In this document: piece after piece, positions 3,390 to 3,459 of the stretch
Layout of the letters: every line of letters starts with the position of its first letter
Position numbering within the stretch: the first letter of the stretch is position 1
Source of the DNA: a virus
Taxonomy: Duplodnaviria > Heunggongvirae > Uroviricota > Caudoviricetes
IMG/VR virus record: IMGVR_UViG_2740892369_000030
Length of the DNA: 5,162 nucleotides
Direction: 5' to 3' (one strand)
The notes under the pieces: model-generated
The model's database searches: none
What the model was told of the DNA's origin: nothing
Seen by the model: the letters and a program-made list of their open reading frames with translations, nothing else
Program-made: the position numbers and the translations under genes

Positions 3390-3398
3390 AATAAAAAA

Positions 3399-3429
3399 TA
3401 ACCCGAGCGGCGACTCAGGTTATTTGATT
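3399..3429 (+). terminator. Terminator-like hairpin between A and B: stem TAACCCGAG / CTCAGGTTA, 6-nt loop, followed by T-rich ATTTGATT
   Basis: 9 stem positions with one C-A mismatch (3399..3407 pairing 3414..3422), loop CGGCGA, then TTTGATT. Begins 10 bp after the A stop codon. Could be a partial terminator or attenuator rather than a full stop. Confidence 0.35.
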
Positions 3430-3445
3430 AAACAAGGTATCAAAT
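3422..3445. promoter_or_regulatory. Inverted pair of the ATTTGATACC motif: forward ATTTGATTA (3422..3430) and exact reverse-complement ATTTGATACC (3436..3445)
   Basis: 3436..3445 GGTATCAAAT is the exact reverse complement of the left-end 10-mer. ATTTGAT (3422..3428) and ATCAAAT (3439..3445) form a 7-bp inverted repeat with a 10-bp spacer. Lies immediately upstream of the B RBS. Confidence 0.45.
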
Positions 3446-3459
3446 GAGAGGTTAATAAT

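What the first reader, a model, noticed from the sequence alone, without database searches (positions are those of the whole stretch)
3390..3459. Unusual 70-bp A-B spacer carrying a terminator-like hairpin and an inverted pair of the left-end motif
In Mu, as I recall, A and B are nearly contiguous. Here 70 bp separate them. The spacer holds a hairpin (3399..3422) followed by a T-rich tract, then ATTTGATTA (3422..3430) facing an exact inverted ATTTGATACC (3436..3445), just upstream of the B RBS. This suggests B expression is decoupled from A, by partial termination and/or a factor binding the same motif found at the element end. That would be a way to tune the A:B ratio that Mu is not known to use.
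Basis: partly seen in the sequence, partly recalled or inferred. Interest (0 to 1): 0.55.

Follow-up and report, generated by a model that had tools for sequence, protein, structure and literature searches.

The report
Backward-facing terminator between Mu-like A and B
The hairpin between the transposase (A) and helper (B) genes of this Mu-like prophage is real and conserved, but it is built to stop transcription on the opposite strand, so it probably ends a short antisense RNA covering the B ribosome-binding site and is not a brake on the A-to-B transcript.

Summary
The window is the left 5 kb of the Sp18-type Mu-like prophage of Shiga-toxin E. coli (c, ner, A, B). Mu itself has a 38-bp unstructured A-B spacer, so A and B are not "nearly contiguous" there.

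In 14 spacer variants from relatives (B down to 54% identical), a hairpin sits just after the A stop. It occurs as three unrelated stem sequences, with compensatory changes.

The conserved features point to the minus strand:
- The invariant T-run follows the stem only on that strand.
- Plus-strand C×A mismatches become G·U pairs on the minus strand.
- Consensus energy is −17.9 (minus) against −8.4 kcal/mol (plus).

A σ70-like promoter (TTGNNN-17-CATNNT) overlaps the B start codon on the minus strand in 17 of 18 variants. It predicts a 58–75-nt antisense RNA covering the B Shine-Dalgarno, much like P22 sar or IS10 RNA-OUT. No transcript data exist.

The copy of the end motif lies in a hypervariable segment. 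Only 15 of 42 close relatives have it, although those whose left end could be examined keep the same end sites. The exact 12-mer match remains unexplained.

Partial plus-strand termination is not supported as the conserved function.

The parts
1299..3389 (+). A gene (Mu-type transposase, 696 aa); stop TGA at 3387-3389
   Evidence: ORF list. Pfam Mu-transpos_C and HTH_Tnp_Mu_1. Annotated as a DNA transposition protein in Sakai Sp18.
3389..3398 (-). A-run on the plus strand, which is the U-tract (UUUUUUAUUU) of the minus-strand terminator. It runs into the A stop codon.
   Evidence: Tail TTTATTTCAG reported after the stem on the minus strand. At least five invariant T columns directly 3' of the stem in 14 of 14 variants. 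The run is always adjacent to the stem but 0-5 nt from the stop codon.
3396..3425 (-). Terminator hairpin: 13 pairs with a 4-nt loop on the minus strand (AAAUAACCUGAGU-CGCC-GCUCGGGUUAUUU)
   Evidence: -15.7 kcal/mol, z -4.2. RNAalifold gives 12 pairs, 8 with compensatory changes, -17.87 kcal/mol on the minus strand against -8.37 on the plus strand. 95.8% of cells are paired on the minus strand against 87.2% on the plus strand.
3428..3449 (.). Hypervariable segment between the hairpin and the B Shine-Dalgarno; the predicted single-stranded body of the antisense RNA
   Evidence: 24-61% identity between spacer types a-d, while the flanking 400 nt of A and B are mostly 93-99% identical.
3434..3445 (-).
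   Evidence: Present only in type-a spacers, 15 of 42 close relatives.
3422..3445 (.). 7-bp inverted repeat ATTTGAT (3422-3428) / ATCAAAT (3439-3445). The first arm overlaps the terminator stem.
   Evidence: Read directly from the sequence. The second arm is not retained in types b, c and d.
3446..3451 (+). Shine-Dalgarno of B (GAGAGG)
   Evidence: Sequence. A GAGG-type element precedes the ATG in the relatives' spacers.
3457..3462 (-). Putative -10 hexamer CATATT of the antisense promoter (complement of aatATG of B). An overlapping alternative is TATTAT at 3460..3455.
   Evidence: Own scan: the same position in 17 of 18 hairpin-bearing variants, as CATATT, CATAAT or CATCAT. The tool flags ATTACA-16-TATTAT at 3482..3455 on the minus strand.
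3480..3485 (-). Putative -35 hexamer TTGATT (complement of AATCAA, B codons 7-9), 17 nt from the -10
   Evidence: TTGATT, TTGAAA, TTGATA or TTGCTA at the same position in relatives. Absent in Mu.
3389..3452 (-). Predicted antisense RNA, about 62 nt. The 5' end is near 3450-3453 and includes the anti-SD CCUCUC. The 3' end lies in the U-tract.
   Evidence: Inferred from the promoter and terminator positions. The folds are an unstructured 5' part followed by the terminator in every variant. No transcript data.
3460..4392 (+). B gene (MuB-type AAA+ target-DNA activator, 310 aa)
   Evidence: Pfam Phage-MuB_C and AAA_22.
94..250 (+). Three direct copies of the TTTGATAC core (94-103, 189-198, 241-250) at 18, 113 and 165 nt from the phage left end (window 78); likely A-binding sites L1-L3
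   Evidence: Three inverted copies at the right end of Sp18.

Best explanation
The extra roughly 32 bp that Sp18-type phages carry after the A stop codon is a Rho-independent terminator oriented for the minus strand, that is, for leftward transcription antisense to B.

Most likely it ends a short cis-antisense RNA. The RNA would start at a σ70-type promoter whose -10 is the complement of aatATG of B and whose -35 lies in B codons 7-9. It would run about 60 nt across the B Shine-Dalgarno and leader and stop in the U-tract that abuts the A stop codon. By pairing with the B translation-initiation region it would lower B synthesis independently of A, as P22 sar RNA does for ant and IS10 RNA-OUT does for transposase. 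The hypervariable 18-29 nt between the terminator and the SD would be the RNA's single-stranded recognition region.

Shown: the structure, its conservation and covariation, and its strand polarity. Inferred: the promoter, the transcript and the regulatory effect.
For: **1. A conserved hairpin.** It is present in all Sp18-type relatives examined (B 54-100% identical; E. coli, Citrobacter, Edwardsiella, Sodalis, Symbiopectobacterium). It occurs as three unrelated stem sequences: ATAACCYGAG, ACAGTCCG and GCCATTCGG. Eight of 12 pairs show compensatory changes. The covariation score is 0.663 against 0.34 in shuffles (0 of 500 reach it), and paired cells collapse to 34-55% when the partners are slid.

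**2. Strand polarity.**
- The consensus energy is -17.87 kcal/mol on the minus strand against -8.37 on the plus strand.
- 95.8% of cells are paired on the minus strand against 87.2% on the plus strand.
- G·U occurs at 8 pair positions on the minus strand (C×A on the plus strand) against 1 the other way.
- In 10 of 15 variants the minus-strand fold of the region is more stable, by 0.8-7.4 kcal/mol.
- In the window, z is -4.2 (minus) against -1.65 (plus).
- The U-run directly after the stem is invariant on the minus strand. The plus-strand tails are U-poor.
- The terminator scan reports the site only on the minus strand.

**3. A candidate promoter.** A σ70-like match with 17-nt spacing sits at the same position on the minus strand in 17 of 18 hairpin-bearing variants. 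It is absent from Mu, which has no hairpin. One of only four promoter-like hits in the window falls here.

**4. The predicted RNAs.** They are 58-75 nt, with an unstructured 5' part containing the anti-SD, followed by a strong terminator and poly-U.

**5. The hypervariable block.** It lies exactly between the predicted start site and the terminator.

**6. Not a minus-strand gene.** No minus-strand ORF is conserved.
Against: - No transcript, start-site or 3'-end data were available.
- The published Hfq-crosslinking list for strain Sakai names only EcOnc37 (5077340-5077410) in Sp18 and nothing at the A-B spacer.
- The promoter match is modest (8-9 of 12). It is partly forced by the ATG and by conserved B N-terminal codons. 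Neighbouring wobble positions (GATATTAA) are also conserved, so the wobble argument is weak. One variant (L054) has the poor -10 CATCAC.
- The hairpin also forms in the plus-strand mRNA (-9 to -20 kcal/mol), so a plus-strand role is not excluded.
- The hairpin, spacer and B are inherited as one block together with the last ~45 codons of A. Linkage to B is therefore not independent evidence.
Confidence: 0.45

Rival explanations
1. It is a leftward terminator acting only as an insulator. It stops spurious or pervasive antisense transcription that arises in AT-rich B and early-gene DNA from running into A. The short RNA itself has no regulatory role.
For: All the strand-polarity evidence applies equally. 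No abundant Hfq-bound RNA is reported at this site. The promoter match is only 8-9 of 12.
Against: This does not explain why a promoter-like element sits at a fixed position about 60 nt upstream in 17 of 18 variants. It also does not explain why the element is placed exactly so that the transcript covers the B SD. The scan of the first ~19.6 kb of the Sakai locus lists six minus-strand promoter-like matches, fewer overall than shuffles give, and none was examined for conservation.
Confidence: 0.2
2. The hairpin is a partial plus-strand terminator or attenuator that lowers read-through from A into B and so sets the A:B ratio.
For: In Sp18 and its closest relatives the plus-strand stem is followed by TTATTTGA (5 T in 8) and is preceded by an A-run, as in bidirectional terminators.
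Against: - The plus-strand tail is not conserved (TGTTAAAC, GCCTTATC, TTATCTGG; 2-5 T in 8), whereas the minus-strand U-run is invariant.
- Mismatches weaken the plus-strand stem specifically.
- The plus-strand fold is not distinguishable from shuffles (z -1.65), and the scan does not report the site on the plus strand.
- No σ70-like promoter match was found between the hairpin and the B start, so B and the early genes after it are presumably read from upstream of A, as in Mu. The clear plus-strand terminator lies only at the end of that early gene block (L001 10455-10478).
Confidence: 0.12
3. It is a plus-strand mRNA processing or stability element. Cleavage in the A-rich tract would leave a 5' hairpin that stabilises B mRNA and an unprotected A 3' end, giving more B than A.
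For: The A-run is always directly 5' of a stable hairpin in the plus-strand mRNA. Differential stability through intercistronic hairpins is an established mechanism (general knowledge: pap, puf and mal operons).
Against: The asymmetry of G·U against C×A favours selection on the minus-strand RNA. A pure A-run lacks the U-rich context that RNase E prefers (general knowledge).
Confidence: 0.12
4. The GGTATCAAATGA copy (3434-3445) is a working transposase-binding site through which A regulates B. It would act as a roadblock or by affecting the antisense promoter. This can coexist with any of the models above, but only in type-a phages.
For: The 12-mer is identical to the L1 and R2 cores. It has three copies in the Sakai locus against 0.00 expected. 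The core marks both phage ends in inverted orientation. It sits next to the B SD.
Against: - It is absent from 27 of 42 close relatives. Ten of those 27 could be checked at the left end, and they keep the same end motifs; their A genes are 92-99% identical.
- It is absent from L048, whose ends carry the same core.
- The other spacer types show no similarity to their own ends.
- It is a single isolated site and its flanks do not match.
Confidence: 0.1

Closest known systems
P22 sar RNA (antisense to the arc-ant intercistronic region and ant RBS)
   Same: A short (~68 nt) antisense RNA made within a phage operon. Its promoter is at the start of the downstream gene, it covers the intercistronic spacer and RBS, and it lowers translation of the downstream gene only. 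Basis: general knowledge; sar is listed as a P22 antisense regulator in PMC5415839.
   Different: The phage family and target differ (antirepressor against a MuB-type ATPase). There is no sequence similarity. The Sp18 RNA is only predicted.
IS10 RNA-OUT and IS200 art200 (antisense control of transposition genes)
   Same: A cis-antisense RNA starts inside the 5' end of a transposition gene and pairs with its RBS, damping transposition (general knowledge; PMC5006887 and PMC4513863 appear).
   Different: Those RNAs target the transposase itself. Here the target would be the B accessory ATPase, not A. RNA-OUT is a long stem-loop, not a seed followed by an intrinsic terminator.
A-B junction of phage Mu
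   Same: The gene order c-ner-A-B is the same. The 3' half of the Sp18 spacer resembles the Mu spacer (TTAAACAA...GAGGTTA...ATG).
   Different: The Mu spacer is 38 bp with no hairpin (-1.2 kcal/mol) and no minus-strand promoter match. Mu-type spacers also occur next to a Sp18-type A gene (L063 and L064).
AsxR/AgvB-type prophage sRNAs of EHEC
   Same: These are 51-60-nt prophage RNAs with a conserved ~42-nt 3' terminator part and variable 14-18-nt 5' ends (PMC4104026). The predicted RNA has the same layout.
   Different: There is no sequence or Rfam match. Those RNAs act in trans on core sRNAs. The Sp18 site is not in that paper's Hfq list.
Lambda OOP RNA
   Same: A 77-nt leftward antisense RNA inside a rightward phage operon, ended by an intrinsic terminator (PMC5415839).
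   Different: OOP overlaps the 3' end of cII and acts through RNase III cleavage, not at an RBS.

Membership tests
Rho-independent (intrinsic) terminator, minus strand | Stable G+C-containing stem-loop | tested here: met
   13 pairs, -15.7 kcal/mol, z -4.2. Conserved, with compensatory changes in 8 of 12 pairs.
Rho-independent (intrinsic) terminator, minus strand | U-tract immediately 3' of the stem | tested here: met
   UUUUUUAUUU in the window. At least five invariant T columns in 14 of 14 variants, and 6-8 T in the 8 nt after the last G-C pair.
Rho-independent (intrinsic) terminator, minus strand | RNA 3' ends produced at the site in vivo or in vitro | not testable with these tools
   No Term-seq or transcript data could be read. 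The supplements of PMC7547250 are not held.
   Tails are TTATTTGA, TGTTAAAC, GCCTTATC, TTATTCAA and TTATCTGG (2-5 T in 8). The scan does not report the site on the plus strand.
Cis-antisense regulatory RNA (sar / RNA-OUT type) | Promoter on the opposite strand at the 5' end of the target gene | tested here: inconclusive
   TTGNNN-17-CATNNT at a fixed position in 17 of 18 variants, scoring 8-9 of 12. It is confounded by the ATG and by coding constraints.
Cis-antisense regulatory RNA (sar / RNA-OUT type) | Transcript complementary to the target's translation-initiation region | tested here: inconclusive
   If transcription starts at 3450-3453, the RNA begins with the anti-SD CCUCUC. The start site is predicted, not measured.
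Cis-antisense regulatory RNA (sar / RNA-OUT type) | RNA detected and shown to change target expression | not testable with these tools
   Nothing was found in the literature searches. The site is absent from the Hfq-CRAC sRNA list of strain Sakai.
Mu-type transposase end-binding (att) site | Match to the repeated end motif | tested here: met
   Exact 12-mer TCATTTGATACC, shared with L1 and R2.
Mu-type transposase end-binding (att) site | Conserved in relatives that keep the same end motifs and transposase | tested here: not met
   Present in 15 of 42 close relatives. The left-end sites at 18, 113 and 165 nt are kept in most loci where the left end could be aligned.
Mu-type transposase end-binding (att) site | Bound by the A protein | not testable with these tools
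   Needs a gel shift or footprint.
Mu-like transposable phage early region | c, ner, A (DDE transposase) and B (AAA+ MuB) in Mu order, at a phage end with inverted terminal binding sites | tested here: met
   Pfam hits. 100% identity to Sakai prophage Sp18, annotated as Mu-like. End motifs. Many different insertion sites.

The most novel reading that the evidence does not exclude
Sp18-type transposable prophages carry a previously undescribed small-RNA gene in the A-B spacer. It has a conserved terminator module and a rapidly exchanged 5' recognition segment, with at least four types among near-identical phages.

This would give type-specific antisense control of the MuB-like target-DNA activator, a form of multicopy inhibition or cross-immunity between co-resident transposable prophages, and possibly trans-acting seeds as well.

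In type-a phages, the embedded transposase-binding 12-mer would additionally couple the level of A protein to production of the RNA, and so to B translation.
Probability: 0.15. Interest if true: 0.75.

Novelty: new member of a known kind. Interest (0 to 1): 0.5.

Why it matters
Mu is the textbook model of replicative transposition, and the balance between A and B determines target choice, target immunity and transposition rate. To my knowledge, and in the literature searches run here, no RNA-level control of B has been described for any Mu-like phage.

Sp18-type prophages are common in Shiga-toxin E. coli: 186 of 5,426 complete E. coli genomes hold at least 80% of this window. They are found at many different chromosomal sites.

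A conserved antisense terminator and promoter unit across the B ribosome-binding site would be a simple, testable way for these elements to restrain B, and therefore transposition, in lysogens or in cells with several copies. It would extend the antisense logic of IS10 and P22 to transposable phages. It also illustrates that a terminator-like hairpin inside an operon should be read on both strands before it is called an attenuator.

Tried and rejected
- **Rfam.** At E ≤ 5 there were only chance-level hits. MicX and ncr1015 both fall on the minus strand at about 3391-3506 and are driven by the terminator.
- **A minus-strand peptide gene.** The 53-aa ORF at 3420-3581 is interrupted in types d, L044, L047, L049 and L050, so it is rejected.
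- **An IHF site at the inverted pair.** Reading the sequence by eye gives no fit to WATCAANNNNTTR, so this is rejected.
- **"The hairpin follows the B type, not the A type."** L044/45 and L063/64 first suggested this. Protein comparison showed that the last ~45 residues of A also follow the B type. The hairpin simply lies inside one recombination block, so the argument was dropped.
- **Wobble conservation as promoter evidence.** Neighbouring wobble positions are conserved too, so this was judged weak.
- **Scans for more relatives.** The genome scan added only Citrobacter, Edwardsiella and Sodalis/Symbiopectobacterium variants. The metagenome scan and two further viral scans added two new spacer variants, one of them next to a decayed B pseudogene. 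More distant B relatives (Mu, Rheinheimera, Pasteurellaceae) have short spacers without a hairpin.
- **Searches for transcript data or prior description.** These found nothing.
- **Do other spacer types copy their own phage ends?** They do not.

Full report
**What the window is**

The window is 100% identical to Mu-like prophages of Shiga-toxin E. coli, including prophage Sp18 of O157:H7 Sakai. Matches from many different chromosomal insertion sites all begin at window 75-78, so the phage left end is at 78 (TGTAACCAGG...).

The genes are:
- a leftward repressor-like gene ending at 328, annotated as a regulatory protein in Sakai;
- ner (1049-1297);
- A (1299-3389; Pfam Mu transposase domains);
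- B (3460-4392; Pfam MuB C-terminal domain plus AAA).

**Checking the observation**

The comparison with Mu was recalled wrongly. In Mu (AF083977), A ends at 3319 and B starts at 3358. That is a 38-bp, AT-rich, unstructured spacer. The 3' half of the Sp18 spacer resembles the Mu spacer. The extra ~32 bp in Sp18 is the hairpin and the A-run before it.

**The hairpin is conserved, with covariation**

I collected A-B junctions from viral contigs, species-representative genomes and metagenomes. All relatives with a B protein 54-100% identical have a 67-83-bp spacer with a hairpin right after the A stop. They come from E. coli, Citrobacter, Edwardsiella, Sodalis and Symbiopectobacterium.

The stem exists in three unrelated sequence families: ATAACCYGAG/CTCRGGTTAT, ACAGTCCG/CGGACTGT and GCCATTCGG/CCGAATGGC. 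On an alignment of 14 distinct variants:
- 8 of 12 pairs show compensatory double changes;
- the covariation score is 0.663 against 0.34 in shuffles (0 of 500 reach it);
- sliding the partners drops the paired cells from 96% to 34-55%.

More distant B relatives (Mu, Rheinheimera, Pasteurellaceae) have 12-38-bp spacers and no hairpin.

**The strand it works on**

Four observations agree that the selected structure is the minus-strand RNA.

1. The run of A's directly 5' of the stem on the plus strand is present in every variant. It stays attached to the stem although its distance from the stop codon varies by 0-5 nt. On the minus strand this is a U-tract directly 3' of the stem. After the last G-C pair there are 6-8 T in 8 on the minus strand, against 2-5 on the plus strand.
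2. Imperfections in the plus-strand stem are C×A or A×C, which are G·U wobbles on the minus strand. G·U occurs at 8 pair positions on the minus strand and at 1 on the plus strand. Paired cells are 95.8% against 87.2%.
3. The RNAalifold consensus is -17.87 kcal/mol with 12 pairs on the minus strand, against -8.37 kcal/mol with 8 pairs on the plus strand. In the window itself the values are -15.7 kcal/mol (z -4.2, 0 of 200 shuffles) against -10.9 kcal/mol (z -1.65, 11 of 200).
4. The terminator scan reports the site on the minus strand only. In the first ~19.6 kb scanned of the Sakai locus it is one of three convincing terminators. The other two are the leftward terminator after the repressor gene and a plus-strand one at the end of the early gene block.

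The element is therefore a leftward intrinsic terminator whose U-tract abuts the A stop codon. A weak plus-strand effect in Sp18 itself (tail TTATTTGA) cannot be excluded, but it is not what is conserved.

**What it terminates**

All annotated early genes are on the plus strand, and no minus-strand ORF is conserved here. Any leftward transcript is therefore antisense.

A σ70-like promoter lies about 60 nt upstream on the minus strand. In the window it is TTGATT (complement of 3480-3485, B codons 7-9), 17 nt, then CATATT (complement of aatATG, 3457-3462). The tool reports the overlapping ATTACA-16-TATTAT as one of only four promoter-like hits in the window.

The same arrangement occurs at the same position in 17 of 18 hairpin-bearing variants. 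The hexamers vary: TTGAAA, TTGATA or TTGCTA, and CATAAT or CATCAT. Mu has no such match.

This predicts RNAs of 58-75 nt that start at the complement of the B Shine-Dalgarno. Each has 25-35 unstructured nucleotides followed by the terminator and poly-U. That is the layout of P22 sar RNA and, in function, of IS10 RNA-OUT.

This step is inference only:
- the promoter scores 8-9 of 12 and is partly dictated by the ATG and by conserved codons;
- one variant has a poor -10;
- the Hfq-crosslinking catalogue for strain Sakai lists only EcOnc37 in Sp18, far from this site;
- I found no transcript data.

**The end motif**

TTTGATAC(C) occurs three times in direct orientation at 18, 113 and 165 nt from the left end, and three times inverted at the right end of Sp18. 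The left-end copies are kept in most relatives whose left arms could be aligned, at 76-100% identity. From memory, Mu's L1-L3 and R1-R3 sites are arranged similarly. These are very probably the transposase-binding sites.

The spacer copy matches L1 and R2 over 12 nt. It has three copies in the Sakai locus against none in 100 shuffles, so pure chance is unlikely.

However, it lies in a sharply bounded hypervariable block (3428-3449). That block is only 24-61% identical among phages whose flanking A and B sequences are mostly 93-99% identical. There are four spacer types, and only type a has the motif: 15 of 42 close relatives, plus 3 of 13 metagenome loci. Ten of the relatives that lack it could be checked at the left end, and they carry the same end motifs. 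Other types show no similarity to their own ends. L048, whose ends use the same core, has no spacer copy.

The inverted pairing with ATTTGATTA is only 7 bp, and its first arm is part of the terminator stem. The motif is therefore not a conserved part of the element. Whether it has a type-a-specific function remains open.

**Mosaic structure**

L044 and L045 combine a Mu-type A with a Sp18-type spacer and B. L063 and L064 combine a Sp18-type A with a Mu-type spacer and B. In both cases the last ~45 residues of A follow the B type. This fits the known role of the MuA C-terminal tail in contacting MuB (general knowledge). The hairpin is part of a block made of the A tail, the spacer and B. Its linkage to B is therefore not independent evidence for function.

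**Verdict**

The best-supported reading is a conserved leftward intrinsic terminator (confidence about 0.8). It most likely ends a short antisense RNA against the B ribosome-binding site (about 0.45 for the whole model).

It would be a new member of a known kind of regulator, in a phage family where none has been described.

Noticed in passing
window 1-77: The sequence left of the phage end is not host core DNA. It matches Stx-converting and other E. coli prophages, and the source genome annotates an IS66-like ISCro1 transposase under the match. This copy is therefore inserted in another mobile element.
   Followed up: no
window 926-981: Repeats of CCAAAATACC form a 31-nt palindrome (948-978) between the repressor gene and ner. 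Related copies lie inside the repressor gene at 588-623. They look like operator sites, and they are distinct from the end motif.
   Followed up: no
window 989-1028: A 19-nt inverted repeat (TTACCCGTGCAGATATCCG / CGAATATCCGCGCGGGTAA, 84% complementary) lies just upstream of ner. Part of it (ATCCGCGCGGGTAAC) recurs inverted inside B at 4064-4078.
   Followed up: no
window 127-162 and 4435-4470: A 36-nt inverted similarity (28 of 36) links a left-end segment containing GGTGAAATCACC to the small ORF after B. My rough estimate is that this is unlikely by chance. It was seen again only in a relative with an identical left end; the coordinates used for the other loci were off.
   Followed up: partly
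window ~3250-3386 (A C-terminus); L044 and L063: The last ~45 residues of A co-vary with the type of B, not with the rest of A. Recombinants exist in both directions. This fits an A-tail/B interaction module.
   Followed up: partly
L008, L023, L027, L031 spacers (type d): Type-d spacers carry a second plus-strand hairpin (CTCGGAGAATGCTGTCTCAAGCGAG) that pairs with part of the B Shine-Dalgarno. Folding of the whole spacer gives about -24 kcal/mol, against -11 in type a.
   Followed up: no
window 309-336 (minus strand): A terminator-like hairpin lies directly after the stop of the leftward repressor gene.
   Followed up: no
L001 10455-10478 (NC_002695.2 about 5050954-5050977): A strong plus-strand terminator (AAATCCCGCC...GGCGGGATTT followed by TTATTTT) lies after ECs_4960. 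From memory, this corresponds in position to the end of Mu's early operon.
   Followed up: no
NC_002695 5077340-5077410 (minus strand), inside Sp18 near its right end: A published Hfq-bound candidate sRNA, EcOnc37, maps inside this prophage. It is far from the A-B spacer.
   Followed up: no
left ends of L008, L016, L023, L037, L040: Several relatives appear to start TATAACC instead of TGTAACC. The Sakai right end seems to read TATAGCGCGG inward if the core spacing is to match L1. The terminal dinucleotide may therefore not always be TG/CA. The exact right end and the target duplication were not resolved.
   Followed up: partly
L009 about 2346 and L035: One relative has a 1-nt deletion that frameshifts the A C-terminus. 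Another has lost the A stop codon, so A reads four codons further into the A-run. Both look like decay or variation at the A 3' end.
   Followed up: partly
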